Source of the DNA: a virus
Lineage: Duplodnaviria > Caudoviricetes
Reading direction: 5' to 3' (one strand)
DNA length: 55,572 nt
Virus record (IMG/VR): IMGVR_UViG_3300026320_000006
Location: 1-55,572 of that record
The translations under genes and the position numbers were made by a program. Positions 1 through 55,572 of the stretch are shown here, in pieces. Under the pieces are notes generated by a model. The model was not told where the DNA came from. It was given only the letters and a program-made list of their open reading frames with translations, and did no database searches. Every line of letters begins with the position of its first letter. Position 1 is the first letter of the stretch.

Positions 1-578
1 GACTGAGGAGAATACGCGCTTTCTTTTCAGCTTGAGCTTGAGCCCAATCGAGTGGCAAGTAGTCAGACCAGACCTGTGCTTGAGAACCAGGAAACAATTT
101 AGCCAAAACACGATAATTGCCTGATCCACTCTCATCTGGCGTGAGTGCAATACGATCTCCACTATCAAGCTCCAACACGAATTTTCCATCCGGTTTCGCT
201 TGCCAGGTCAGTTTGGCTAGCAGGTTCAATTCAACGTCTTTGTTACGCTGCTCTTTCAGCTTGCGCACAACCGAGCTCTCTGTTTTGTTGCCGATCTCTT
301 CTTTTTCACGCTCAAGCGCTTCAAGTAAACTTTCTTCTGGGTTGAGCTTTTTTCCGAGTACCTTGCTTAAGCTCAATGGCTCTAAACGGTGCTTGAAACA
401 GTTGTCAGTGATGTCCAGGATGATACAATCTTTTTTGTCGGGCGCTAATCTTAGCCCGCGACCAATCGCCTGGATAAACAGCGCTCTGGATTGTGTTGGC
501 CGCGCCATGATAATGCAATCGCACAAAGGTTCATCCCAACCCTCTGAAAGCACATTGACGGTCGTCAGGACGCGGATA
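1..578. repeat. Terminal direct repeat, left copy (circular overlap, divergent allele)
   Basis: Aligns without gaps to 54995-55572; first 127 bp identical, about 32 substitutions by hand count over 128-533. Confidence 0.95.
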
Positions 579-1450
579 GAACCGTCTCTGAACGCTTTGT
601 AGATATATTTACGCGCTTCAAGTGAAGTGTCACCTACGACGACAGCAGAGGGAATACCGGTCTCTTTGAATGCTGCTGTCAGATGTTCTGCATGCTCAAC
701 GGTGACTGCAAAACAGGCAGCTCTTCGACCTGAAGCGTACTGCTGATATTTCTGGACAATCAGCCTGTTCCTTGCAGGGGTATCAACAGCCGCTTCCAAC
801 TCGTCAACCTTGAAATCTCCGGCCTGTGTATGCAAATCGTCCAGGTTGATATCGGTCTGTATGGGGATTGCCCGCATGTCAGTAAGATAGGGCGGATTAT
901 GTGTTGCCAGATCGATGATACTGGCTTCGAACAATGGCGTTTTGCCGTCCAGCAGCGGCTTACCATCCAGACGATCCGGGGTAGCTGTGACCATCAACAC
1001 AAACGCATCTGGAAGCGTTTCTAGCACGTCCTGATAGCTTTGAGCCATGCTATGATGTGCCTCATCGATGATCAGCAACAAGCCCTTTCCAGTGCCGTAC
1101 AGGGCTCTTAGTTGCTTCAGATGGTTTGGCCGGGCAATCGTCATAATTCCCGCTACAGTGACCTCACCCCCATACTGATATTGCCCTGAGCCGACTTTGC
1201 CAATCACTGCATCGGGTTTGACCATGCGGTATTTGTCAGCAGCTTGATCCAGCAATTCGTCTCGATGCGCCACAACCATAGCGTTGGTATCATGTTTTTC
1301 AGCAAGCCGGTGGATCACCTGCGAGAAGATAACTGTTTTTCCGGCTGAACAGGGAAGTACAAGCAGTTCACTTCCAGCATTGTTTTGCTCGTACGATGCC
1401 AGAATACGCTCGATGCTGATTTGCTGATACTCCCTCAATACAAATTCCAT
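1..1450 (-). CDS. SF2 DEAH-box helicase (SSL2/RadD-like), N-terminal part; continues across the circular junction to 54786
   Basis: Hand translation from ATG 1450: LREYQ, LPCSAGKT (motif I), IIDEAHH, TATP, LSEGWD, QAIGRGLR; absent from the ORF track because it runs off the end. Confidence 0.92.
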   Translation of the reverse strand, partial: MEFVLREYQQISIERILASYEQNNAGSELLVLPCSAGKTVIFSQVIHRLAEKHDTNAMVVAHRDELLDQAADKYRMVKPDAVIGKVGSGQYQYGGEVTVAGIMTIARPNHLKQLRALYGTGKGLLLIIDEAHHSMAQSYQDVLETLPDAFVLMVTATPDRLDGKPLLDGKTPLFEASIIDLATHNPPYLTDMRAIPIQTDINLDDLHTQAGDFKVDELEAAVDTPARNRLIVQKYQQYASGRRAACFAVTVEHAEHLTAAFKETGIPSAVVVGDTSLEARKYIYKAFRDGSIRVLTTVNVLSEGWDEPLCDCIIMARPTQSRALFIQAIGRGLRLAPDKKDCIILDITDNCFKHRLEPLSLSKVLGKKLNPEESLLEALEREKEEIGNKTESSVVRKLKEQRNKDVELNLLAKLTWQAKPDGKFVLELDSGDRIALTPDESGSGNYRVLAKLFPGSQAQVWSDYLPLDWAQAQAEKKARILLS

Positions 1451-3602: not shown

Positions 3603-3610
3603 CCGGCTCC

Positions 3611-3805
3611 TCATACACACAAAACACCTCTGGCGCATGGAGAACAAGCCAGAGGTGTTTTGCTTTGAAACATGGTGCATTCCGCTCGCAGTACGACAAA
3701 CTGTAAACGTTGGAAGCTAATTGGCTTCCTGCTCAGAGTATAACATATCGACAACCGGATATGGTATACTGTGCTTGTTGGGAATTGCGTGAACGCTGTG
3801 TTCAT
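3611..3805 (-). CDS. Possible small protein (64 aa)
   Basis: AAGGAG 9 nt before ATG 3805; runs through the terminator hairpin; no recognisable motif. Confidence 0.3.
   Translation of the reverse strand: MNTAFTQFPTSTVYHIRLSICYTLSRKPISFQRLQFVVLRAECTMFQSKTPLACSPCARGVLCV
3620..3662. terminator. Hairpin terminator after terS
   Basis: CAAAACACCTCTGGC / GCCAGAGGTGTTTTG perfect 15-bp arms. Confidence 0.75.
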
Positions 3806-3833
3806 TTGATACGACTCCTTAAGAAGACGCGCC

Positions 3834-3877
3834 ACCTCGCAGGCGTCTCAAAACAATTCTGCGAGGTTTTTCTTTTT
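3834..3877 (+). terminator. Intrinsic terminator
   Basis: ACCTCGCAG...CTGCGAGGT followed by TTTTCTTTTT. Confidence 0.65.
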
Positions 3878-4014
3878 GCCTTGCAGGGGGATCAAGACGG
3901 TACACAATAGGAAAGTAGGATAGCTGTACAAAGCTTTGTACATGTGATAAAATAAGGATAGACAACAAACGGTTGTCTTTGTACAACTCTCTATCCGAAA
4001 GGAAGTCTATCCTT

Positions 4015-4341
4015 ATGGACACTGTATCACTTGATGGTCTGCAAGCGCAAATTGACGATCTACAAAAGCGAGTTGAAGCACTGGAACAGAAGCGTGGCCC
4101 ACGCGCAACCTTGCCACCGCTTTCACCTGATCAAAAACAAAAAGCCATTGCTCAAATATTGCCACTTCTGATAAAACTGGCAGATGCGGATGAATGGGTA
4201 ACCACTCGCTATATCTCCCACAAAACAGCACTCCTCCGGCGATTAGGAACAAAACAAGTTCGCGCTTATCTGGATGAGCGACCAAACCTTTTCTTAAAAC
4301 GAGGAGATGGAGCATCGGCTGAGTATCAGATAAAACTGTAG
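4015..4341 (+). CDS. Coiled-coil plus winged-helix protein, paralog of the C-terminal domain of the 43733-45424 replication protein
   Basis: AQILPLLIKLADADEWVTTRYISHKTALLRRLGTKQVRAYLDE aligns with AQILNVLTKLEAGTHVTARFVSHQTAKLRKLGAPEVRKILDD; GAAAGGA RBS. Confidence 0.8.
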   Translation: MDTVSLDGLQAQIDDLQKRVEALEQKRGPRATLPPLSPDQKQKAIAQILPLLIKLADADEWVTTRYISHKTALLRRLGTKQVRAYLDERPNLFLKRGDGASAEYQIKL

Positions 4342-4356
4342 TTCGTTTCCTGGCAG

Positions 4357-4384
4357 GGGCTGATGAAACATTTCAGCCCTTTTT
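4357..4384 (+). terminator. Intrinsic terminator
   Basis: GGGCTGA-loop-TCAGCCC-TTTTT. Confidence 0.75.
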
Positions 4385-4770
4385 CTATGACAAAATTGTC
4401 CATAGTTTTATCCCTATGATGGATATTTTAGAAACTATCTTAAATCAGCCCTACAGGGGGATGCATGAGGATGCTTGTACATTTTGTACATTTTTATGGT
4501 CATATACCATTATGTACATAATAATAATAATTATGCATGATATGATGGACAAAACTATATAAACTCATCTATATTTTATGATAGTATGTACAAAAATGTA
4601 CTGTACATTAGTCTCTAGTTTTGTACATCATTCTGAGCATAAAATAAACACAAAAGTACATATACCCTTTTGTACAGGGACAAAATGTACAGGCACCCCC
4701 TGCAAGGGCTTTATACCTTACCTGATATCGTATACATGTTTTGTCCATCTATGGGCATCATGGACAAGAC
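4385..4770. repeat. AT-rich iteron-like array (TGTACA / TGTCCA / TGGACA)
   Basis: TGTACA at 4476, 4485, 4513, 4587, 4602, 4622, 4671, 4686; TGTCCA/TGGACA at about 4397, 4546, 4742, 4761; central ATAATAATAATAATT. Confidence 0.8.
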
Positions 4771-4779
4771 CTTATTTTT

Positions 4780-4860
4780 ATCCTGTTCCCGCTACTTCCC
4801 CGGGCGGCGTAGCTCAGTCGGTACGTCATAGAATGGTACTATCATGGCACGTCAACACCA
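4780..4860 (+). pseudogene. tRNA cluster remnant: fMet-like 3' end followed by the 5' part of a second (Met-like) tRNA
   Basis: ATCCTGTTCCCGCTAC (4780-4795) resembles an initiator tRNA 3' end; GGCGGCGTAGCTCAGTCGGTA (4803-4823) is an acceptor plus D-arm start; decayed remainder ends ACCA. Confidence 0.55.
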
Positions 4861-4863
4861 CAA

Positions 4864-4894
4864 GGGGCGGTGGCGAAATGGTAGACGCAGGAGA
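4864..4894 (+). pseudogene. 5' half of tRNA-Leu
   Basis: GGGGCGG-TG-GCGAAATGGTAGACGC-A-GGAGA = acceptor, Leu-type D arm and 5' anticodon stem. Confidence 0.85.
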
Positions 4895-5054
4895 TCTGAA
4901 CAGAACCGAGTTCTATTTGCGGATTGTCAACTATCTTATTTAATCTCAGTATGGTACACTTCCTCTCAGAACCAAAGATGACAAGGTTGCAACCCAAGGA
5001 TTTTCAAGATTTCTTCTAGAAGCCCAGCAGTATAAACTGGCTTGAGAAGAGAAG

Positions 5055-5111
5055 TAGGGCGGGAGGGAATCGAACCCTCACGGACTCACCGTCCCGGAGA
5101 TTTTAAGTCTC
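5055..5111 (-). other. 3' half of tRNA-Leu(UAA); probable attP core
   Basis: Minus strand GAGA-CTTAAAA-TCTCC, variable arm GGAC/GTCC, GAGGG-TTCGATT-CCCTC, CCGCCCT-A; 73 bp upstream of the integrase. Confidence 0.88.
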
Positions 5112-5184
5112 AAGATCTCGTCAATTGGCTTGCCACCTTGTTCTGCAATGTTCTGCAATGGTATAGAAACGAGGTCAGTTTTTC

Positions 5185-6111
5185 ATGCAGGTCAGCGAGG
5201 CTATTGAAGATTTCCGGTTTTCCATTTTGCACCTGGCGCCTGGTACTCAGCAGTGGTATTTGTGGCGCTTAGAAGCGTTTGCTTCCTGGTGTTCCTCGCA
5301 AGGGATAGAGCTTGAACAGCTTAAGCGAAAAATGCTGGCAACGTATCTGGACCAACTTCGGTCAACACCCAGCAAGACAACCGGGAAACCGCTCTCATCC
5401 CATACAGTTCACGGCCATGCCAGGGCAATTAGGGCATTCCTGAACTTCTGTGCTAAGGATGATGATCTGCAGCGCGAATTGTCCTCGTTGCCAACAAACA
5501 AAGTACCGATGCCTCGCCTGGAAAAGAAGCTGATCAAAACATTGACTCAGGAACAAATCCAGGCCATGTTTGCAGCATGTGACAAAGAATATCTTCCTCA
5601 CCTGGTTGTGCGCGATCGCGCTATTTTGTCTTTACTCCTGGACACCGGTATTCGTGCTAGTGAACTCTGCAACCTCACGCTTGATTGTGTCTTTCTGAAG
5701 CATGACTCTCATATTCGGGTCCATGGGAAAGGCGACAAATGGCGCGAAGTCAGCCTGGGTATAGAATCGAGCAAGGCATTGCACCGCTATATTTCCCGGT
5801 ATCGTCCTGCGTCCACAGAAGAAAAGCACGTGTTCATCGGTCGGTTTCACGAACCGATGCGGTTCGATGGATTAAAGCAGCTGTTGTACCGGCTCAGGGA
5901 TTTTGCCGGATTAGATCACAATGTGCGCGTCAATGCGCATGTGTGGCGGCATACATTCGCGATGAACTACTTGAGACAGGGCGGTGATATTTACGCTTTA
6001 AGCAGGTTGATGGGGCATGAAAGTATTCATGTAACTCAGATGTATGCACAAGCACTCAAATCTGAGCAGGCACGCAAGATTAGCGGGAGTGTCTTAGATC
6101 GGATGTTTTGA
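5185..6111 (+). CDS. int: Tyrosine recombinase / integrase (XerC/D-like, no obvious arm-binding domain)
   Basis: DTGIRASEL, HGKG, HVWRH, LMGH, TQMY catalytic motifs. Confidence 0.95.
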   Translation: MQVSEAIEDFRFSILHLAPGTQQWYLWRLEAFASWCSSQGIELEQLKRKMLATYLDQLRSTPSKTTGKPLSSHTVHGHARAIRAFLNFCAKDDDLQRELSSLPTNKVPMPRLEKKLIKTLTQEQIQAMFAACDKEYLPHLVVRDRAILSLLLDTGIRASELCNLTLDCVFLKHDSHIRVHGKGDKWREVSLGIESSKALHRYISRYRPASTEEKHVFIGRFHEPMRFDGLKQLLYRLRDFAGLDHNVRVNAHVWRHTFAMNYLRQGGDIYALSRLMGHESIHVTQMYAQALKSEQARKISGSVLDRMF

Positions 6112-6162
6112 TATGCCCCCTGCAAGGGTCTGTAAACCATAGGTTTGAAAGGAGGTGAAACA

Positions 6163-6297
6163 GTGAACCAGGAAGATAGGGAAAAGAAAGAGGACAAAGA
6201 CGAAAAACAAGAGGAAAACGAGAGCGACAAACACCCAGGTGAGTACTATTGTGGTATTTGTGGTCGCATGATGCCTATCTCGCATTTTCCGCATTGA
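6163..6297 (+). CDS. 44-aa microprotein with charged N-terminus and CxxC..HxxH end
   Basis: AAGGAGGTGA RBS, GTG start, MNQEDREKKEDKDEKQEENESDKHPGEYYCGICGRMMPISHFPH; not in ORF track. Confidence 0.6.
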   Translation: MNQEDREKKEDKDEKQEENESDKHPGEYYCGICGRMMPISHFPH

Positions 6298-6393
6298 TTA
6301 GTTTGTAGCGCGTCATCGTTGGAAAGAGGGCAACGCTCGTCAAAGCCTGCCCTCCAGTCCCTGGTAGTTAGTCAGAGACATAGGGATTATCCC

Positions 6394-7902
6394 ATGTCGC
6401 TTGAAAGGGCGCAATATGCCATGGTGTTTCTTATCGTCTTCTTGTGCATGCTGATCTTTATTGCTATCGTGTCTATCTGGTATGATGTGCGTCTGTATCG
6501 TGCGCGAAGAATGTTACGCAAGCGAGAACTGGAAGAAGCGCGCCAGTATTCCCTGGTCATTCGTGCTAAAGTGGAAGAGGATCGGCACTATGAGCTTGAG
6601 TTGCAGAAATTAGATCTCCAGCAACAAAAGATTGCTTTAGACCAGGATCGCTTTCGATTGGAAAGTTTCTTGTCGCTTACCCGAGTCGATACATCGCAAT
6701 ATGGAACGTATCTGGTGAACCAGGAACAAGTTCACCTAACCCAACTTGCGCCCATTCATAAGCCGTTTTCTGTAAAAGAGGAGCCTGCGCAAATAGCAGG
6801 GCTGGTTATTCAGCGTCCATCTCAAGACTTGCTGCTTTCCAGTTTAGAGCAAAACAAGTTTCTCGTTTCGCCGGGCGTGCAGTCTTCTACTGGTGAACCG
6901 GTGATAGTTGATCTGCTCAAAGTGCCACATCTCAAAATTATCGGCTCATCCGGTTTTGGTAAATCGTGTCTAGCTGCGGCTATCTTAGACCAGGCCACAA
7001 CGACAAATGATCCTAAACACATGCAACTTGCTTTGCTGGATCTGGAGCATAAAACCTCGCGATTGTTTGAAGATCGCCCGCATGTTGCTGAACTTCAAGA
7101 TGGTCGTCGCCGCGTTACCATGGTTGCTACGAATGCCGATGAGGTTGCAACGCATCTGAATATTCTCAAGAAAGAATTAGACCGGCGCGCTGCACAGAGC
7201 GAACGTGAACTCTACAAAAATCCGGTTTTGTTGATGTACGTGGAAGAGATGTTGAGTTTGCAATATGAAATCATCGATCCGAAACTGCTAGCAAAAATGT
7301 TTGCATCACTGAATATTCTCGCGGTGCGTGGTCGCAAATACGGCATGTTTTTGTTGGCTTGTATGCAGACAGACTACTCAACCGATGAACTGAAAGTCTC
7401 ACAAAAACAATTTCGGTATAGAGCAGCTGCCGCGATCGATGTGCCCGCAGCTCGGGCCGCAGGGTTTATGAATACTGACCTGATCAAAGAAAATTTTCAG
7501 AATGGCAAGCCAGGTCAGTTTGTGGTTGAATATCCATCCTTTTCGAATATTGTGTTGGCTCCTCAGTACGACGTGCGGTCTCTCCTGAACGAAAAAGAGG
7601 GCATGGACGAGGGCTTTTCTGGCGATTTTGGGACCGCTGCAGGTGAGATCACAAGCCACGTGCAACTGGTGGACAGCCAGTCAACAACCATTGTGCAAAC
7701 TTCTGAGGATGATGCTGCAAAAGCCTGGGAAGCCAAAGCAGCGCAAGTATGTGAACTGCTTGCGCAAAATTGGGGAAAAATCAAGATTATTGAGCATGTT
7801 TGGCGACCAGTGAAAGCTGGAAGTAACAAACCCTATCGACAGGCAGAAAAAGAGTACGATCGCATTGTTGAACAATTGACAGCAGAGAAAAGTGAGAAGT
7901 AG
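6394..7902 (+). CDS. Membrane-anchored FtsK/SpoIIIE-family ATPase (TraB-like DNA translocase)
   Basis: N-terminal TM helix, coiled coil, PHLKIIGSSGFGKS (Walker A), LMYVEE (Walker B), RGRKYGMFLLACMQ, small C-terminal helical domain. Confidence 0.85.
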   Translation: MSLERAQYAMVFLIVFLCMLIFIAIVSIWYDVRLYRARRMLRKRELEEARQYSLVIRAKVEEDRHYELELQKLDLQQQKIALDQDRFRLESFLSLTRVDTSQYGTYLVNQEQVHLTQLAPIHKPFSVKEEPAQIAGLVIQRPSQDLLLSSLEQNKFLVSPGVQSSTGEPVIVDLLKVPHLKIIGSSGFGKSCLAAAILDQATTTNDPKHMQLALLDLEHKTSRLFEDRPHVAELQDGRRRVTMVATNADEVATHLNILKKELDRRAAQSERELYKNPVLLMYVEEMLSLQYEIIDPKLLAKMFASLNILAVRGRKYGMFLLACMQTDYSTDELKVSQKQFRYRAAAAIDVPAARAAGFMNTDLIKENFQNGKPGQFVVEYPSFSNIVLAPQYDVRSLLNEKEGMDEGFSGDFGTAAGEITSHVQLVDSQSTTIVQTSEDDAAKAWEAKAAQVCELLAQNWGKIKIIEHVWRPVKAGSNKPYRQAEKEYDRIVEQLTAEKSEK

Positions 7903-8157
7903 ATGCACATCTTTCGCGAGGAGCTAAAGACCACCAAAGCATCACGTAAGAAACTGACCCAGCGGCTGCGCGCGATGCGTCTGTTCATTTTCTGGCATTA
8001 CATTCTGCTTGCGCTTTCAGGTGTGAATGCTGCTTTTGTGCTGTTTGTTGCGTTGAATGTGGTGAATGTGCCTTATCGCGAGGTGATGTTTGTATTCTCG
8101 TGCGCTTCTTTCGGATTGTCGGCTTATCTGTTGTTTTCAGGATTATCAACAAAGTGA
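7903..8157 (+). CDS. Small two-TM membrane protein
   Basis: Basic N-terminus then two hydrophobic segments; starts immediately after the ATPase stop. Confidence 0.7.
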   Translation: MHIFREELKTTKASRKKLTQRLRAMRLFIFWHYILLALSGVNAAFVLFVALNVVNVPYREVMFVFSCASFGLSAYLLFSGLSTK

Positions 8158-8164
8158 GGTGTGT

Positions 8165-9001
8165 ATGCAACAAAAACTCTCTCCATCGCAGAAGCTTGCA
8201 AAATGGACCAGTGAAGCGGAATCGATCTTTAATCATATGCTCGGGTATGTGATTGCAACAACGGCTCTGGTTGCGTTTGCTGATGTCCTGGGCAATGGGA
8301 AGATTACTGACTATCTTCCCTGGCTGTTCTGGATATGGGTGACTGCACAAGGGTTATGTGTCGAATTCCAGGTGTTCATTCTGGTGAAGCGTTTACCTGA
8401 ACTGTTCAGAGTGAACAGGGGCATGTTCGGAGTGAACATCGGGTTTATTGTATGCCTATGCGCCATGTCTATTGTCATTGGCGCGGTATTCGTTGAGCAT
8501 GATAATACTGGAGGATCTATCGATTCAGCTATGTCCACATTGGGCATAAATCATATTGTGTTTGTGTATGCTCGGGCAGCGTTGGCTATTTTTTTGATTG
8601 TGCTGATTGCTGTGGATCGTGCGCTAGATCAAGCAGTGAACAGTAGCGAACAGAGCAAACAGGCAGTGAACACATCGAATACTGACGAGGTTGTAGCGCG
8701 TTTAGAGGCGCGATTTGATCAGATGGAAGTGTATCACCAGCAACAATTAGCGTTGGTGTATGAGCAATTCACACGTATCAGGATTGGCTTAGAGCAGCCT
8801 GTAGAGGTACAAGAGCAACAACAGTTGCCCGTGTCCATAGAAGAGATACCGGATATGTCGTTGACAGCAAAACAGCGTATAGTGGAAGTGCTGAAAGCGA
8901 ATCCGGCTGCGTCCATTTCAGAGATTGAAGAAAAGGCGAAAGTTTCACGCGGCTATGCTAGTGAACTGCGTCGAACATTGAGTGTTCAGAGTGAACAGTA
9001 A
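8165..9001 (+). CDS. Four-TM membrane protein with coiled coil and C-terminal HTH (Spd-like)
   Basis: Four hydrophobic segments; C-terminal KQRIVEVLKANPAASISEIEEKAKVSRGYASELRR; GAGGTG RBS. Confidence 0.75.
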   Translation: MQQKLSPSQKLAKWTSEAESIFNHMLGYVIATTALVAFADVLGNGKITDYLPWLFWIWVTAQGLCVEFQVFILVKRLPELFRVNRGMFGVNIGFIVCLCAMSIVIGAVFVEHDNTGGSIDSAMSTLGINHIVFVYARAALAIFLIVLIAVDRALDQAVNSSEQSKQAVNTSNTDEVVARLEARFDQMEVYHQQQLALVYEQFTRIRIGLEQPVEVQEQQQLPVSIEEIPDMSLTAKQRIVEVLKANPAASISEIEEKAKVSRGYASELRRTLSVQSEQ

Positions 9002-9032
9002 GTGAATGCTTACTGTTCGGAAAGGATGAACA
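8403..9032. repeat. Cluster of AGTGAACA 8-mers and TGTTCR-GAG-TGAACA palindromes
   Basis: AGTGAACA at 8410, 8431, 8635, 8665, 8990, variants at 8645, 8654, 8960, 9001; palindromes at 8403, 8424, 8983. Confidence 0.7.
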
Positions 9033-9280
9033 GAATGGGTTTAGAACATGAATTGTTAGAGTTGAATACAGCGTATCAGAACAGCCGTGAAGATGTGCTG
9101 ATGTTGCAAGATCGTATTCAGCAGTTGGAGCAACTGGTAAGTGATGCGCAATGGCATATGGAACTCTATCATGCCGTGATAGAGAATTCTGCCGGTCTGT
9201 CTTATGAGGTAAGAGCGCCACGTTTACCACAAATAGAGGCATGGCAGCAACGCGCCAAAGAACTGTTGGGCAGCGAATAA
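9002..9280 (+). CDS. Coiled-coil hypothetical protein
   Basis: Heptad pattern; abuts the previous gene; exact start uncertain. Confidence 0.6.
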   Translation: MNAYCSERMNRMGLEHELLELNTAYQNSREDVLMLQDRIQQLEQLVSDAQWHMELYHAVIENSAGLSYEVRAPRLPQIEAWQQRAKELLGSE

Positions 9281-9514
9281 TCCTACAAATAAAGAGAGCC
9301 AGGTGTGCTTTGCCCGGCTCTCTAGACGCATAACCTTACCCTCCACTACATCAGACAATGGATAGAGTAAACATCTTGGTACGATGAGTCCAGTATAACA
9401 CAATCTCGCAGCGACACACCCCTGCACGGCTTTTCTTTTTGCTTAGGCTATGCTATACTCAGTTTATGAATAATTAATCATTGATTATTCATAACTTGAG
9501 CAAAGGAAACACAC

Positions 9515-12334
9515 TTGCTCACCCTGATAAAGCAATCACAGCAACCGCCAGAACTGACCTATGATGAATTACTTGAAGCAGAAGAATACAGACGCAGCTT
9601 CAAACGATTTGCTATTGCTGCATGGCATGTGATTGAACCGTCTAAACCCTTGCTGTGGAATTGGCACTTAGACGCGATCGTAGAACATCTCCAGGCGTTA
9701 TATTTCCGCGAAATCACGCGGCTCCTCGTAAACATTCAACCAGGCACAGCAAAATCCACCTTCTTCAGCATCATGTTCCCTGCCTGGTGTTTCACCAATG
9801 ACGCCGCTATGCGCTGGTTGTGTGCGTCTCATTCGCTTGATCTTGCAATCAGAGACAATAAAAATTGCCGTGATCTGATACAAAGTGAATGGTATCAGCA
9901 ACGCTATGGTCATTTGTTCTCGTTGAAAGGTGATCAGAACGTCAAGAGCTATTTTGAGACGAGTCAGCGCGGCTATCGTATGGCTGTAGCTGTGCGAGGC
10001 TCAGGAACCGGGAAAAGATGTGATGCCAGCATTATCGATGATCCAAATAATGCGATGTCTGGATTGGCTGATCAACAGGCAACGATTGATTGGTTCGAAA
10101 AAACCTGGATACCGCGCCATAACGATCAGGAAAAAAGTCCAATGGCGGTTGTTGGCCAGCGTTTAGGGCAAAATGATCTCTCACAACATATTTTAGAGCT
10201 TGGTGGTTGGGAACATTTGAATTTGCCAACAGAGTTTGAGCCTGGAAGACGATGTTATACAAGCGTGATAGGAGATGTGTGGAAAGGCTATGATCCGCGA
10301 GAAGAAGAAGGCGAATTGCTGTGGGAGGACAAATTTTCGCGTGAAAGTGTGGAAAAGACAAAAGCTAATATGGGAACGCTGGAATATCACGCGCAATATC
10401 AGCAATCTCCGGTTCCTCCAGGCGGTTACGTCTTCGAAAAACAGTATGAGCGTCTTTTCAGCATCGATCAGGAAGCCAATGTGTACTTGCTGGAGACTCC
10501 AGACGGCATCAAACCAGTGGTCATAAGCGGATGTAAGATCTATATTACCTCGGATGTAGCTGCTAAGGCCAAAGAAAAACATGATTTCACCGTCTTTTGT
10601 GTATGGGCAATCACGCCGCGCAAAGAAATCTTGTTGCTCTATGTCATCAGGGCTCATTTGACGATCACAAAACAGCCGGACGAGGGGTACAAGACCTATC
10701 AGGCCTATTTAGATGATCGTTTTCAGTCATTTTGGTTTGAAGATGTGGCCTATCAGGGCGCATTTGGTCAGTATTTGATGGAAAAAGGTGTGCCATGCGA
10801 GCCTTTTTATCCAAAGGGTGACAAAGTGGTTCGAGCGGGGGGCGCGGCCATTCAGATGAAGCTTGGCAATGTCTATTTTCTGAAAAATGCGAGTTGGCTG
10901 GAGACGTGGCGCAAGGAAATCTATCTGTTTCCGCAAGACGCGCATGATGATCAGTGTATTTTACCTGATGCGCTATTGCCTTATATCCCCCATGATGATA
11001 TAATAAGCTCATACGTTAGTCGTCATGTAGGAGATAAAGCAATGCTTATAGGTGAAGCTCAGAACCTTAAAGAAGGCGATCTGGTTGTTACCCATACGGG
11101 AAAATGGCAGAAGATTGTACATGTGATTTCACGCTCATATCAGGGTGAGATGGTTGTTATTAAACCGCAAGGTGGCTTTGAATTATCACTTACTCCTGAA
11201 CATCCTGTATTTTGTGTGAAGCGTACCGGAAAAGGGCAATTCTGGAAACCTCGTGCTGTAGGTGAGCCGCAATGGATACCAGCCAGTGAAGTTGTTCCTG
11301 GTGACTCGGTGCTTGAAGCGATAGATCAAACAATAACGCCTGTTGAACAGCTTGATCTATCAGAATGGCTTTTAGCTGAACGTAGTGAAGCTCAAGGTAA
11401 ACGAAGTCATGCAGGGTTATATCTTTCTCGTTTGATTGTTGAGCCTGATGTTATTCGTTTTAACAATCCTCGTTCTCATCCAATTAAGCGATTTGTGCAG
11501 GTAGACGGTGATTTGTGTCGTTTGATGGGCTATTATGTAGCTGAGGGCTCACGAGGCAAGCATAATGTTCAGTGGTCATTTAATGTTAATGAGACTGAAT
11601 ATCATGTTGATGTAACGAATCTGCTTCAATCTAAATTTGGTATCGCTCCATCAATTCAGAAAGCACATAATTCTCTTACTCTCGCTGTTTCTTCATGGGT
11701 GTTACACGATTTCTTTGCTCAATTTGGACGTGGCGCAAAAAATAAGATCGTTCCTCAATGGATTATGCATCTTCCACATAATTTACAGGTAGAATTTCTT
11801 AAAGGCGCATGGCGCGGAGATGGATGTGTTGCTACTGATGGAAGCGGATTAATTTATTGTTCTTCGTCTCGTGAATTAGTTGTTGCTTTAAGAATGATAC
11901 TTTATCGGCTTGGCATTGTTGCAAGCATGGGTATATCACGTCCTAACGGTACTGTTGGGCATAGTATTCGTGGGAGAGCAATAAAATTATCATCTCCGCT
12001 TTACATGTTGAAAGCCGGTGGCGAATATGCGCCTGTTCTTGCTTCTTTGCTGGATATGCCGATTAACCGTGAACACATTCAAAATGGACGTGTTGGCGAT
12101 CGGATTGTAGATGGGTATGTCCATCGGAGAGTACGCAAGGTTGAATTTGTTGATTATGAGGGGCCTGTTTATAACTTTGAAGTTGAGGAAGATCATTCGT
12201 ATCAAACGGAGTCTTTCATCGTCCACAATTGCGACAATCTCAGTATGATTGTGATTATTGTCAAGATGGCCAAAGATGTAGAGCCAATGGACCAGGAAAC
12301 AGCGAACGCTATTAGAAATTATGCAGGATATTGA
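9515..12334 (+). CDS. terL: Terminase large subunit with intein
   Basis: NIQPGTAKS Walker A, IIDDP Walker B, AQYQQSP, RNaseH-like TSDVA...HDDQ|CD. Confidence 0.95.
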   Translation: MLTLIKQSQQPPELTYDELLEAEEYRRSFKRFAIAAWHVIEPSKPLLWNWHLDAIVEHLQALYFREITRLLVNIQPGTAKSTFFSIMFPAWCFTNDAAMRWLCASHSLDLAIRDNKNCRDLIQSEWYQQRYGHLFSLKGDQNVKSYFETSQRGYRMAVAVRGSGTGKRCDASIIDDPNNAMSGLADQQATIDWFEKTWIPRHNDQEKSPMAVVGQRLGQNDLSQHILELGGWEHLNLPTEFEPGRRCYTSVIGDVWKGYDPREEEGELLWEDKFSRESVEKTKANMGTLEYHAQYQQSPVPPGGYVFEKQYERLFSIDQEANVYLLETPDGIKPVVISGCKIYITSDVAAKAKEKHDFTVFCVWAITPRKEILLLYVIRAHLTITKQPDEGYKTYQAYLDDRFQSFWFEDVAYQGAFGQYLMEKGVPCEPFYPKGDKVVRAGGAAIQMKLGNVYFLKNASWLETWRKEIYLFPQDAHDDQCILPDALLPYIPHDDIISSYVSRHVGDKAMLIGEAQNLKEGDLVVTHTGKWQKIVHVISRSYQGEMVVIKPQGGFELSLTPEHPVFCVKRTGKGQFWKPRAVGEPQWIPASEVVPGDSVLEAIDQTITPVEQLDLSEWLLAERSEAQGKRSHAGLYLSRLIVEPDVIRFNNPRSHPIKRFVQVDGDLCRLMGYYVAEGSRGKHNVQWSFNVNETEYHVDVTNLLQSKFGIAPSIQKAHNSLTLAVSSWVLHDFFAQFGRGAKNKIVPQWIMHLPHNLQVEFLKGAWRGDGCVATDGSGLIYCSSSRELVVALRMILYRLGIVASMGISRPNGTVGHSIRGRAIKLSSPLYMLKAGGEYAPVLASLLDMPINREHIQNGRVGDRIVDGYVHRRVRKVEFVDYEGPVYNFEVEEDHSYQTESFIVHNCDNLSMIVIIVKMAKDVEPMDQETANAIRNYAGY
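10955..12229 (+). mobile_element. Intein (425 aa) with LAGLIDADG homing endonuclease
   Basis: Starts CILPD; block B LTPEHP; LMGYYVAEG and FLKGAWRGDG; ends VYNFEVEEDHSY...IVHN|C. Confidence 0.95.
10976..11044 (+). promoter_or_regulatory. Internal promoter, RBS and in-frame ATG inside the intein
   Basis: TTGCCT-N17-TATAAT with extended TG, AGGAG at 11029, ATG at 11042. Confidence 0.7.
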
Positions 12335-54785: not shown

Positions 54786-55572
54786 TTATGCCCCCACACG
54801 TTTTTCGCGCCATTCGGCAAATTTGCCGTAGACACTATCCAACAAATCACTCGCTTCACCTTTCGTGACTGTCACTGGATCATATTTGAGGTTGAATCTG
54901 GCCTGATACTTTGCCAGCTTTTCTAGTTGTACCTCGGTTGCCGAGTCGTTGCGCCAGGGTAACGTTCTATCTACCAGTTTATAGCCATTTGGTTGACTGA
55001 GGAGAATACGCGCTTTCTTTTCAGCTTGAGCTTGAGCCCAATCGAGTGGCAAGTAGTCAGACCAGACCTGTGCTTGAGAACCAGGAAACAATTTAGCCAA
55101 AACACGATAATTGCCTGATCCGCTCTCATCTGGCGTAAGTGCAATACGATCTCCACTATCAAGCTCCAACACAAATTTACCATCGGGTTTCGCCTGCCAG
55201 GTCAGTTTGGCCAGCAGGTTCAGTTCAACGTCTTTGTTGCGCTGCTCTTTTAGCTTGCGCACAACCGAGCTCTCTGTTTTGTTGCCGATCTCTTCTTTTT
55301 CACGCTCAAGCGCTTCAAGTAAACTTTCTTCTGGATTAAGCTTTTTCCCAAGTACTTTACTCAGGCTCATTGGCTCAAGCCGGTGCTTGAAACAGTTATC
55401 AGTGATGTCCAGGATGATACAGTCTTTTTTGCCGGGCGCTAATCTTAGCCCGCGACCAATGGCCTGGATAAAAAGCGCTCTGGACTGTGTTGGGCGTGCC
55501 ATGATAATACAATCGCACAAAGGTTCGTCCCAACCCTCTGAAAGCACATTGACGGTCGTCAGGACGCGGATA
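54786..55572 (-). CDS. SF2 helicase, C-terminal part (same gene as 1-1450)
   Basis: LSEGWDEP, QAIGRGLR; overlaps the terminal repeat. Confidence 0.9.
   Translation of the reverse strand, partial: IRVLTTVNVLSEGWDEPLCDCIIMARPTQSRALFIQAIGRGLRLAPGKKDCIILDITDNCFKHRLEPMSLSKVLGKKLNPEESLLEALEREKEEIGNKTESSVVRKLKEQRNKDVELNLLAKLTWQAKPDGKFVLELDSGDRIALTPDESGSGNYRVLAKLFPGSQAQVWSDYLPLDWAQAQAEKKARILLSQPNGYKLVDRTLPWRNDSATEVQLEKLAKYQARFNLKYDPVTVTKGEASDLLDSVYGKFAEWREKRVGA
54995..55572. repeat. Terminal direct repeat, right copy
   Basis: Matches 1-578. Confidence 0.95.

What the first reader, a model, noticed from the sequence alone, without database searches (positions are those of the whole stretch)
4864..5111. 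tRNA-Leu(UAA) split into inverted halves; one inversion rebuilds the whole gene
Seen: 5' half on + (4864-4894) and 3' half on - (5111-5055) share GAGA of the anticodon stem. Inverting 4895-5107 yields an 84-nt cloverleaf with matching acceptor (GGGGCGG/CCGCCCT) and anticodon stems (GGAGA/TCTCC), next to a tyrosine recombinase; GAGATCT lies at both junctions in inverted orientation. Established: attP normally carries only the 3' part of the tRNA, and Leu(UAA) is the bldA developmental tRNA in Streptomyces. Inference: an invertible on/off tRNA switch, or in the prophage a 31-bp inverted repeat with the host 5' half. Caveat: 4 bp of shared sequence is short for a tyrosine-recombinase overlap, so a scar of aberrant integration or excision is a real alternative.
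Basis: partly seen in the sequence, partly recalled or inferred. Interest (0 to 1): 0.8.

Follow-up and report, generated by a model that had tools for sequence, protein, structure and literature searches.

The report
Phage attP with inverted tRNA front
This is the chromosome-attachment site of a temperate soil-bacterium phage: beside the usual tRNA-Leu tail used for integration it carries a backwards copy of the same gene's promoter and front half, a trait of the whole phage family that looks like part of the integrase control region and not a working tRNA on/off switch.

Summary
Observation confirmed. 4864-4894(+) and 5111-5055(-) are exact 5' and 3' parts of a Ktedonobacteraceae tRNA-Leu(UAA), and inverting 4895-5107 in silico gives an 85-nt cloverleaf.

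The window is a phage in non-integrated form. The 3' part, 73 bp upstream of a Xer-like tyrosine integrase, is an ordinary tRNA-restoring attP.

In a lysogen whose integrase is 69% identical (G079), the 3' part lies next to int. At the far end, 20.6 kb away, sits a complete tRNA-Leu followed by the same inverted 5' half with promoter-like upstream sequence.

The layout recurs with tRNA-Met, Arg(GCG) and Thr in about a dozen loci, so it is a family trait and not a one-off scar.

An Int-driven switch is not supported:
- The two sites share 4 nt, and their loop-position heptamers match at 3 of 7.
- GAGATCT is absent from the relative's arm.
- No flipped form appeared in contigs of 4 runs or in any relative.
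- One lineage carries a decayed 5' copy.

Best reading: an outward promoter block that transcribes int across attP only in the circular genome, like Pcirc of ICEclc. This is inferred, not shown.

The scan found this architecture before on other DNA (e1-6222894, e1-5940839). My literature searches found no description.

The parts
4780..4823 (+). Older captured host piece: last 20 nt of a tRNA, an 8-nt spacer, and the first 21 nt of a tRNA-Met (4803-4823).
   Evidence: Sequence. Contigs in runs X1, X3 and X4 match 4780-4823 with 1-2 differences and run on at both sides as complete tRNAs (tables 7 and 8). The Met-like 22-mer is kept 21/22 in the G079 element (L037 about 1361-1383).
4830..4863 (+). 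Copy of the host tRNA-Leu upstream (promoter) region, with the extended -10-like TGGTACTAT at 4834-4842 ('P1').
   Evidence: Homologous to the sequence upstream of host tRNA-Leu genes in lysogen contigs L037 and L135. ATCA[TA]GGCA is invariant in 5 of 5 Leu-type modules. Activity was not tested, and the sigma-70 scan did not list it.
4864..4894 (+). 5' half of tRNA-Leu(UAA), positions 1-31; a phage-borne copy in the P' arm of attP.
   Evidence: 31/31 identical to L003. Identical in the G079 element. Four substitutions in positions 1-16 in L134 and L136.
4895..5054 (.). 160-bp spacer. It holds the conserved junction TCTGAA, CATTTGC, and the -10-like TGGTACACT at 4952-4960 (+ strand, 'P_S') pointing to the core and int.
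   Evidence: Alignments. TGnTAnnnT lies on the 5'-half strand in 6 of 7 spacers of 100 nt or more and 0 times on the other strand; in 5000 shuffles the mean was 1.09 loci and none reached 6. In L134-L136 the TG is lost but TA[CA]ACT is kept.
5012..5050 (-). Hairpin directly behind the tRNA 3' end; a likely phage-supplied terminator for the rebuilt tRNA.
   Evidence: Fold (-15 kcal/mol, z = -0.58, so weak on its own). The stem is kept with changes on both sides, GCC..GGC in the window against GCTC..GAGC in L134-L136, where a U-rich tail follows. A clear terminator sits at the same place in L042.
5055..5111 (-). 3' part of tRNA-Leu(UAA), positions 28-84: the attP identity block. The anticodon loop CTTAAAA lies at 5107-5101 and is the presumed crossover region.
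   Evidence: 57/57 identical to L003. The same block lies next to int and inside the complete tRNA at the far end of the G079 element, in direct orientation.
5112..5184 (.). Integrase-side arm of attP and int leader. It holds AGATCTC (5113-5119), the tandem TGTTCTGCAA x2 (5139-5158), and one arm (5125-5141) of a 17-nt imperfect inverted repeat with 4981-4997.
5185..6111 (+). Xer-like tyrosine integrase, 308 aa.
   Evidence: PF00589 at 9.5e-33 and a SAM-like N-domain. phrog_1 integrase. End-to-end match to the XerC/XerD profiles but below their cut-offs. R143, K182, H252, R255, H278 and Y287 are invariant in 17 relatives.

Best explanation
The interval is the core of the attachment site (attP) of a temperate Ktedonobacteria phage, caught in its non-integrated form. 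The 57-nt 3' part of tRNA-Leu(UAA) on the minus strand lies 73 bp upstream of a Xer-like tyrosine integrase. It recombines with the host tRNA-Leu gene at or near the anticodon loop and rebuilds that gene. This is shown by comparison with an integrated relative.

The 31-nt 5' half is a phage-borne copy of the host gene's front, together with about 30 nt of its upstream region. It lies inverted, 160 bp beyond the 3' end, in the far arm of attP. It is a trait of this integrase family, and the copy is rebuilt from whichever tRNA a lineage targets (Leu, Met, Arg-GCG, Thr).

After integration the copy sits behind the rebuilt tRNA as an inverted repeat of the host's own 5' half. The two copies enclose the phage-supplied 3' part, a terminator hairpin and a promoter-like element.

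Most likely function (inferred): the captured tRNA promoter (P1) and a second -10-like element in the spacer (P_S) both read toward the core. They would transcribe int across attP only while the genome is circular, so the integration event itself disconnects int. That would be a useful brake for a simple, reversible Xer-like recombinase. The tRNA itself is not toggled by inversion in this phage.
For: Non-integrated form:
- Phage genes lie on both sides: helicase at 2-1450, FtsK-like at 6319-7902, and TerL with an intein at 9515-12334.
- The record is rated 98% complete.
- Contigs of two runs carry 4865-5082 exactly as in the window.

attP function:
- The G079 integrase (L007) is 69% identical and has the 3' part on the minus strand just upstream.
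- 20.6 kb away lies a complete tRNA-Leu, preceded on the element side by the inverted 5' half followed by TCTGAA.
- The two 3' parts are in direct orientation in 4 of 4 lysogens examined.

Family trait. An inverted 5' copy of 27 nt or more was seen in:
- the window;
- L004 (the same contig as L052) and L060, on Arg-GCG;
- L055/L056, L022 and G105 (L042), on Met;
- L014, on Thr;
- G079, L134, L135 and L136, on Leu.

Promoter block:
- TGnTAnnnT points toward int in 6 of 7 spacers, and none of 5000 shuffles reached 6.
- The upstream ATCA[TA]GGCA is invariant in 5 of 5 Leu modules.
- No terminator-like site was found on the + strand between 4864 and 5185.
- The principle is known: Pcirc of ICEclc (PMC5812530, passages read) and ICEKp1 (PMC13023037, abstract read).

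Against a switch:
- The heptamers match at 3 of 7.
- The G079 arm lacks AGATCTC.
- L134 and L136 carry 4 substitutions in positions 1-16 of the copy, yet the lineage occurs both free and integrated.
Against: - No transcript data exist: 0 RNA runs hold the stretch.
- The sigma-70 consensus scan lists no promoter in 4800-5185.
- The TG of the spacer motif is lost in L134-L136, and L060 has no match.
- In L014 the module faces away from int, so 'drives int' cannot be universal.
- A promoter role does not explain why a tRNA 5' half should be kept 31/31 between the window and G079 while the spacer between them is only 60/113 identical. Purifying selection on the half itself, or gene conversion against the host copy in lysogens, remains possible.
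- Decayed copies (11 nt in G106, about 17 nt with an indel in G082), and L058, which has none, show that the copy is dispensable in some lineages.
- How both halves are renewed when the target tRNA changes is unexplained.
- Contigs cannot exclude rare flipped molecules.
Confidence: 0.6

Rival explanations
1. Functionless relic that keeps being regenerated. An ancestor carried or captured a whole host tRNA gene with its flank, for example by imprecise excision, or as in tRNA-dependent lysogeny, where a phage has both a short attP and its own tRNA. A recombination event near the anticodon loop then split it into a tRNA-restoring attP plus an orphan promoter and 5' half. The orphan persists through gene conversion with the host copy in lysogens and decays otherwise.
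For: - The copies include host flank: the upstream region of tRNA-Leu, and at 4780-4823 the 3' end of a neighbouring tRNA.
- Identity of the 5' copy ends at position 31 (Leu, L055), 33 (L022, L042) or 38 (L004, L060, L014). These are at or inside the borders of the anticodon loop, where such integrases are expected to cut.
- Decay series: 31 nt with 4 substitutions (L134/L136), 27 nt (L014), about 17 nt (G082), 11 nt (G106).
- Phages that hold both an attP and a cognate tRNA gene exist (PMC10865867, abstract read).
Against: - The layout is retained across integrases only 35-69% identical and across four tRNA species.
- The promoter-like elements beside it are conserved.
- 31/31 identity between the window and G079 stands against 60/113 in the spacer.
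- The heptamer after the Leu copy (TCTGAAC) is not what a conservative exchange with CTTAAAA would leave.
Confidence: 0.2
2. Invertible cassette in the lysogen. The host and phage 5' halves form an inverted repeat around the cassette of 3' half, terminator and P_S. Flipping would occur by RecA, or by Int in lineages where the copy keeps the loop. It moves the 3' half from the host front to the phage front. The tRNA stays intact in both states, but the attL core is reversed relative to attR, which blocks excision.
For: - The geometry is exactly symmetric: full-length 5' copy with its own promoter-like region, and the terminator travelling with the 3' half.
- Repeats of 42+13 nt in G079 and 34 nt in G105.
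- The loop is retained in the copies of L004, L060 and L014, and with one mismatch in L042.
- 31/31 conservation of the half between the window and G079 would follow if flipped lysogens depend on it.
Against: - 4 of 4 lysogens are in the unflipped, excision-competent orientation.
- In L134/L136 the copy has 4 substitutions in positions 1-16, including acceptor-stem and D-stem positions (my placement of them from the alignment). They would impair a tRNA built on it.
- Several lineages keep only 11-27 nt.
- The Leu copies lack the loop.
Confidence: 0.1
3. Accessory integrase-binding site. The part of the copy next to the core (D-stem plus the 5' strand of the anticodon stem) mimics the left half-site of attB. 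It would bind extra Int protomers in the far arm of attP and attL, giving a simple Xer-like integrase an arm-like architecture or autoregulation of the adjacent promoter.
For: - Int has no arm-binding domain: 308 aa, aligned end to end with XerC/XerD profiles.
- Every copy, even the shortest (G106, 11 nt), keeps the stem-proximal part.
- In L042 the copy is a complete stem-loop with one mismatch in the loop, which would bind but not recombine.
- In L004, L055 and L042 the copy ends 14-20 nt before the TG of the spacer's -10-like motif.
Against: - There are no binding data.
- The distance to the -10-like motif varies from 14 to 60 nt.
- Full-length copies with host flank are more than a half-site needs.
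- The 100% conservation of positions 17-31 in L134-L136 is an artefact of how they were found: exact 21-mer search.
Confidence: 0.07
4. One reading: Int inverts 4895-5107 in the phage genome and so turns a phage-borne tRNA-Leu(UAA) gene on and off.
For: - In-silico inversion gives a perfect tRNA.
- An integrase is adjacent.
- A 7-nt inverted GAGATCT lies at both junctions and arose by chance in only 429 of 20000 shuffles.
- In L004 the two halves share 11 nt including the whole loop.
Against: - Only 4 nt are shared at the tRNA-restoring register, and the overlap heptamers match at 3 of 7.
- Inversion at GAGATCT gives a 93-nt non-Leu call.
- AGATCTC is absent from the G079 arm.
- No joint in 4 runs.
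- No relative was found in the 'on' state.
- The integrated relative shows that the 3' part is used for ordinary integration.
Confidence: 0.03

Closest known systems
tRNA-restoring attP sites of tyrosine-integrase phages and islands with the crossover in the anticodon loop (Williams 2002 sublocation classes; recalled, not read here)
   Same: The integrase gene sits next to a copy of the tRNA from the anticodon arm to the 3' end. Integration leaves an intact tRNA at one end and a direct repeat of the 3' part at the other, as seen in G079, G105, G106 and G082.
   Different: This site also carries an inverted copy of the tRNA 5' half with host-like upstream sequence in the far arm. The integrase is Xer-like, without an arm-binding domain.
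Pcirc of ICEclc and the state-dependent int promoters of ICEKp1/ICEEc1 (PMC5812530, passages read; PMC13023037, abstract read)
   Same: An outward-facing promoter at the end opposite int is fused upstream of int only when the ends are joined. That is the geometry of P1 and P_S relative to int here.
   Different: Here the promoter activity is only inferred from sequence. The element is a phage. One of the two candidate promoters is a captured copy of the target tRNA gene's own promoter together with the gene's 5' half.
tRNA-dependent lysogeny of mycobacteriophages such as Fionnbharth (PMC10865867, abstract read)
   Same: A phage carries sequence of the same tRNA that its integrase targets, beyond the usual 3' part.
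   Different: There attP shares only about 10 bp with attB, the host tRNA is destroyed, and a complete phage tRNA complements it. Here the 3' part rebuilds the host gene, and the phage holds no complete tRNA.
Tyrosine-recombinase DNA inversion switches (fimS with FimB/FimE, shufflon Rci; recalled) and integrase-driven inversions between att sites (Int-pTN3; PMC5495485, abstract read)
   Same: A short segment next to a tyrosine recombinase gene is bounded by sequences in inverted orientation.
   Different: There are no adequate identical inverted repeats, and no second orientation was observed.
Earlier findings of this scan on other DNA: e1-6222894 and e1-5940839 (tRNA-Arg(CCG) halves beside the integrase of Ktedonobacteria phages)
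   Same: The same architecture, and the same reading: a tRNA tail for integration plus a backwards promoter and front half that probably drives int in the non-integrated state.
   Different: A different tRNA and different genomes. Added here: a lysogen built on the very same tRNA-Leu module, the spacer -10-like element, a nested older tRNA-Met fragment, and a lineage with a decayed copy.

Membership tests
tRNA-restoring attP of a tyrosine integrase | Adjacent tyrosine recombinase with the catalytic residues | tested here: met
   PF00589 at 9.5e-33. R143, K182, H252, R255, H278 and Y287 are invariant in 17 relatives.
tRNA-restoring attP of a tyrosine integrase | attP block identical to the host tRNA from the anticodon arm to the 3' end | tested here: met
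   57/57 identical to the tRNA-Leu(UAA) of L003.
tRNA-restoring attP of a tyrosine integrase | Integrated copies bounded by an intact tRNA and a direct repeat of its 3' part | tested here: met
   Met for relatives, not for this phage itself: G079, G105, G106 and G082, 4 of 4.
Lambda-type heterobivalent integrase system | N-terminal arm-binding domain and arm-type sites | tested here: not met
   The protein is 308 aa, and residues 17-292 align with whole XerC/XerD profiles. Only SAM-like and catalytic domains were found.
Recombinase-driven invertible DNA switch | Identical inverted repeats long enough for strand exchange at the ends of the invertible segment | tested here: not met
   4 nt are shared at the tRNA-restoring register, and the heptamers match at 3 of 7. 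The 7-nt GAGATCT pair is offset and gives no tRNA-Leu. It is not conserved in G079.
Recombinase-driven invertible DNA switch | Both orientations present in populations or among relatives | tested here: inconclusive
   No joints in contigs of 4 runs. All relatives are in one state. Raw reads were not available.
Split tRNA genes joined in trans (Nanoarchaeum type; recalled) | Complementary trailer and leader that bring the two half transcripts together | tested here: not met
   Only the 6-nt palindrome AGATCT is shared between the sequence after the 5' half and the sequence before the 3' part. It is absent in G079.
Outward promoter across att (Pcirc type) | Promoter at the far side of attP oriented toward int | tested here: inconclusive
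   -10-like motifs on the right strand in 6 of 7 spacers, and the conserved ATCA[TA]GGCA upstream. Against this, the sigma-70 scan gave no hit, and activity was not measured.
Outward promoter across att (Pcirc type) | Higher int transcription in the circular than in the integrated state | not testable with these tools
   No RNA run holds the stretch.
tRNA-dependent lysogeny | Short common core that does not rebuild the tRNA, plus a complete phage tRNA of the same isotype | tested here: not met
   The identity block is 57 nt and rebuilds the gene. ARAGORN finds 0 tRNAs in the window.

The most novel reading that the evidence does not exclude
In lysogens the host and phage 5' halves act as the arms of an invertible cassette (3' half, terminator and promoter). 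Flipping would occur by RecA, or by Int in lineages whose copy keeps the anticodon loop. It hands the 3' half from the host's front to the phage's own promoter and front. The essential tRNA stays intact, but the attL core is reversed relative to attR. That would be a recombinational lock on excision for an integrase that has no directionality factor.
Probability: 0.08. Interest if true: 0.85.

Novelty: new variant of a known kind. Interest (0 to 1): 0.5.

Why it matters
tRNA-targeting attP sites are textbook material and are described as carrying only the 3' part of the gene. Here an abundant integrase family of Ktedonobacteria carries, in addition, an inverted copy of the target gene's promoter and 5' half, rebuilt for each target tRNA. 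Relatives of the integrase at E <= 1e-30 occur in 92 of 169 genomes of the class.

If the promoter reading holds, it gives a simple, self-limiting way for a reversible Xer-like recombinase to make integration stick: integration cuts int off from its promoter. It would also be a case of a phage co-opting its target gene's own promoter.

If the copy instead binds Int or flips in lysogens, it would be a new kind of directionality control.

It is also a practical caution for annotation. Such split tRNA halves are att-site anatomy, not broken or switchable tRNA genes.

Tried and rejected
- ARAGORN and Rfam at gathering scores on the window found no tRNA. Rfam in E-value mode found only the 3' part, as a weak tRNA-Sec-like match. 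On 17 loci it was too insensitive for halves, so I wrote a T-arm/acceptor scan and an inversion scan with ARAGORN.
- A brute-force scan of all join points was uninformative, because ARAGORN tolerates many false joins. Only register-true joins are used.
- Exact searches of viral contigs for either half found 0.
- Reads: only Logan contigs were on offer. There were no joints, which cannot exclude rare variants. There were no RNA holders. The depth differences between the pieces (12.9-37.8) are explained by host tRNA copies in the same samples, and I draw nothing from them.
- The class-wide search for close inverted pairs of the Leu and Met 5' halves found only G079 and G105. The G127 pair proved to be separate complete tRNA genes.
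- G085:C685 is only 6.9 kb, so L022 cannot be called free or integrated.
- Predicted hairpins after the 5' half differ between the window (z = +0.68) and G079 (z = -2.65), so I make no claim of a terminator there.
- Origin models rejected because their predicted junctions do not match the sequence:
  - wrong-orientation synapsis, which would leave TTTTAAG after the 5' half;
  - fold-back copying at the anticodon stem, which would put the palindrome centre in the loop;
  - insertion of an independent element into a phage-borne tRNA, which would give halves in direct orientation.
- I did not search the collections for the flipped junction, because that would need typing a joined sequence.
- Papers: the searches found no description of an inverted 5' tRNA copy in attP. 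Searches returned 0 papers. Subscription journals are mostly outside the library. No supplementary files were consulted.
- Tallies include genomes flagged unpublished (G077; G115 and G123). No specific claim rests on them.
Full report
**What is there.** The window is an IMG/VR virus record of 55,572 b, rated 98% complete.
- At 4864-4894 (+) lie positions 1-31 of a tRNA-Leu(UAA). At 5111-5055 (-) lie positions 28-84. The two share GAGA.
- Each string occurs once in the record, and the reversed-pattern control gives none.
- Both are identical, 31/31 and 57/57, to one complete tRNA-Leu(UAA) gene of a Ktedonobacteraceae MAG (L003).
- ARAGORN and Rfam see no tRNA in the window as it stands.
- After in-silico inversion of 4895-5107, ARAGORN calls an 85-nt tRNA-Leu(taa).

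**Context.**
- A 308-aa tyrosine recombinase starts 73 bp from the 3' part (5185-6111; PF00589 9.5e-33).
- It aligns end to end with XerC/XerD profiles but below their cut-offs. It has no arm-binding domain.
- The catalytic R-K-H-R-H-Y residues are invariant in 17 relatives.
- Phage genes lie on both sides: a helicase at 2-1450, an FtsK-like ATPase at 6319-7902, and a large terminase with an intein at 9515-12334.

The site therefore lies inside the phage genome. The record shows the non-integrated (attP) configuration.

**The integrated counterpart.** Relatives of the integrase at E <= 1e-30 occur in 92 of 169 genomes of the class of the L003 genome.
- The closest relative (69% identity, G079) has the tRNA-Leu 3' part on the minus strand just upstream of int, as in the window.
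- 20.6 kb away on the same contig the 31-mer occurs twice in inverted orientation.
- One copy belongs to a complete tRNA-Leu(taa) on the host side. The other, on the element side, is followed by TCTGAA, as in the window.
- The inverted repeat runs 42 perfect nt plus a further 13 nt, so it extends into the sequence upstream of the tRNA.

This is what a single crossover in the 3' part of a window-like attP predicts. The two 3' parts are in direct, excision-competent orientation in 4 of 4 lysogens examined: G079, G105, G106 and G082.

**A family trait.**
- Of 30 GTDB loci, 8 have a tRNA 3' part on the minus strand directly upstream of int. A further 5 have a complete tRNA on the plus strand there.
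- I looked at the far ends for 5 of the 8:
  - long inverted 5' copies in G079 (Leu) and G105 (Met; 34 nt, continuing to position 43 with one mismatch in the anticodon);
  - short or decayed copies in G106 (11 nt) and G082 (about 17 nt with an indel);
  - none in the 682 nt available in G047.
- L022 (Met) has both halves side by side on a 6.9-kb contig.
- In L014 (Thr) a 27-nt inverted copy of positions 12-38 lies between the complete tRNA and int.
- Among viral contigs, 8 have an integrase at least 35% identical and enough upstream flank.
  - 5 of these have a tRNA 3' part upstream of int.
  - 4 of those 5 also have the inverted 5' half: L052 (the same contig as L004) and L060 on Arg-GCG, and L055/L056 on Met.
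  - L058 (Phe) does not have it.
  - L051, L057 and L061 show no tRNA piece at all.
- An exact 21-mer search of metagenome contigs added two lysogen ends (L135, L136) and one free-form site (L134) of the Leu type.

The layout thus recurs with four tRNA species and with integrases 35-69% identical. That excludes a one-off scar.

**Why not a switch.**
- At the register that would rebuild the tRNA, the two sites share 4 nt. The heptamer after the 5' half (TCTGAAC) matches the anticodon loop (CTTAAAA) at 3 of 7.
- The 7-nt inverted GAGATCT/AGATCTC pair is real (4891-4897 and 5113-5119; chance 429 of 20000 shuffles). But inversion there gives a 93-nt non-Leu call, and the G079 integrase-side arm lacks it.
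- Contigs from runs of two studies carry 4865-5082 as in the window, and none of 4 runs shows a joint. These are contigs, so rare variants cannot be excluded. One run may also be the window's own source.
- No relative was found in the 'on' state.
- In L134/L136 the 5' copy has 4 substitutions in positions 1-16, while the host gene beside it in L136 is canonical. An intact half is therefore not needed by a lineage that occurs both free and integrated.

**What the module may do.** Five Leu-type modules were aligned. They share:
- ATCA[TA]GGCA upstream of the 5' copy. This is homologous to the region upstream of the host gene, which shows a TTGACG-17-TAATAT promoter in G079 by my reading.
- The junction TCTGAA, then CATTTGC, and a -10-like block T[AG]T[GA]GTA[CA]ACT in the spacer.
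- A hairpin right behind the tRNA 3' end whose stem changes on both sides (GCC..GGC against GCTC..GAGC). It has a U-rich tail in L134-L136.

Across tRNA types, TGnTAnnnT lies on the 5'-half strand, pointing to the core and int, in 6 of 7 spacers and never on the other strand. In 5000 shuffles the mean was 1.09 loci and none reached 6.

No terminator-like site was found on the + strand between the copy and int. The same tool's sigma-70 consensus scan also lists no promoter there, which counts against the promoter reading.

The geometry is that of Pcirc of ICEclc and of the ICEKp1 end promoter (PMC5812530, passages; PMC13023037, abstract). Promoters on the far side of attP read into int only in the circular form, and integration severs them. 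For a Xer-like, intrinsically reversible recombinase, that would stabilise integration. This step is inferred, and no RNA data exist.

**What stays unexplained.**
- The window and G079 keep the 5' half 31/31 identical while their spacers are only 60/113 identical.
- Both also keep a 21-22-nt tRNA-Met 5' fragment upstream. In the window this fragment is part of a 44-nt host-like piece, [tRNA 3' end - 8 nt - tRNA-Met start], which matches contigs of the same soils.
- The 5' copies end at position 31, 33 or 38, that is at or within the borders of the anticodon loop. That hints at an integrase-made junction.
- How both halves are renewed at each change of target is open.
- The identity of positions 17-31 in L134-L136 is an artefact of the search string.

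**Earlier notes and papers.**
- Two earlier findings of this scan, on other genomes, describe the same architecture for tRNA-Arg(CCG) and read it the same way. I had reached the promoter idea before seeing them (note), but they are not independent evidence.
- A note on this window (e1-6329447) calls 3603-9514 a self-contained module between terS and terL. I did not test that.
- My literature searches found no description of an inverted 5' tRNA copy in attP.

**Verdict.** The thing is the attP of a temperate Ktedonobacteria phage with a family-wide accessory module: the target tRNA's promoter and 5' half in inverted orientation, plus an outward -10-like element. An ordinary single-crossover integration is well supported. 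The role of the 5' copy is inferred, with promoter block the most likely. An invertible tRNA switch is unlikely.

Noticed in passing
window 4780-4823: A 44-nt piece that looks like host DNA from a tRNA array: the last 20 nt of a tRNA, 8 nt of spacer, then the first 21 nt of a tRNA-Met. Soil contigs match it with 1-2 differences and run on as whole tRNAs. The Met-like 22-mer is also kept in the G079 element. It may be a fossil of an earlier tRNA-Met-specific module.
   Followed up: partly
window 4396-4760: A dense set of direct and inverted repeats of TTTTGTACAT / GATGGACAAAAC-type motifs, between a 122-aa ORF with no family match (3973-4341) and the att region. They could be operators or iterons.
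   Followed up: no
window 5139-5158 and 4981-4997 / 5125-5141: An exact tandem TGTTCTGCAA x2 lies between the core and int. A 17-nt, 88% inverted repeat brackets the 3' tRNA part. Both are candidate protein-binding sites of attP.
   Followed up: no
window 9515-12334: The large terminase carries an intein with a LAGLIDADG endonuclease domain.
   Followed up: no
window 1-1450 and 54786-55572: Both contig ends lie inside minus-strand ORFs: a helicase running off the left end and an ORF entering from the right end. This suggests a circular or permuted genome broken within one gene, but the frames do not join exactly.
   Followed up: no
L003 3449-3464: About 45 nt upstream of the host tRNA-Leu there is a direct 16-nt duplicate of tRNA positions about 20-35 (TAGACGCAGGAGACTT). 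It may be a scar of an earlier element at this gene.
   Followed up: no
L042 1674-1707 and beyond: In the G105 lysogen the inverted tRNA-Met copy continues through the whole anticodon stem-loop, with a single change at the first anticodon base (CAT to TAT).
   Followed up: partly
G079:C2:465252-466197: The 21-kb G079 element holds a second integrase-like gene split into two overlapping ORFs (39-44% identity to the window's Int). It has no homologues of the window's virion genes, so it may be a degraded or non-phage integrative element.
   Followed up: no
L008 2673-2883: A strong HEARO RNA match (148 bits) lies next to one of the integrase homologues in G070.
   Followed up: no
L058 2345-2412: A related viral contig carries tRNA-Phe positions about 8-76 on the minus strand upstream of int. 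It has no inverted 5' copy, but it has a TGCTATACT motif about 105 nt beyond the tRNA 3' end.
   Followed up: partly
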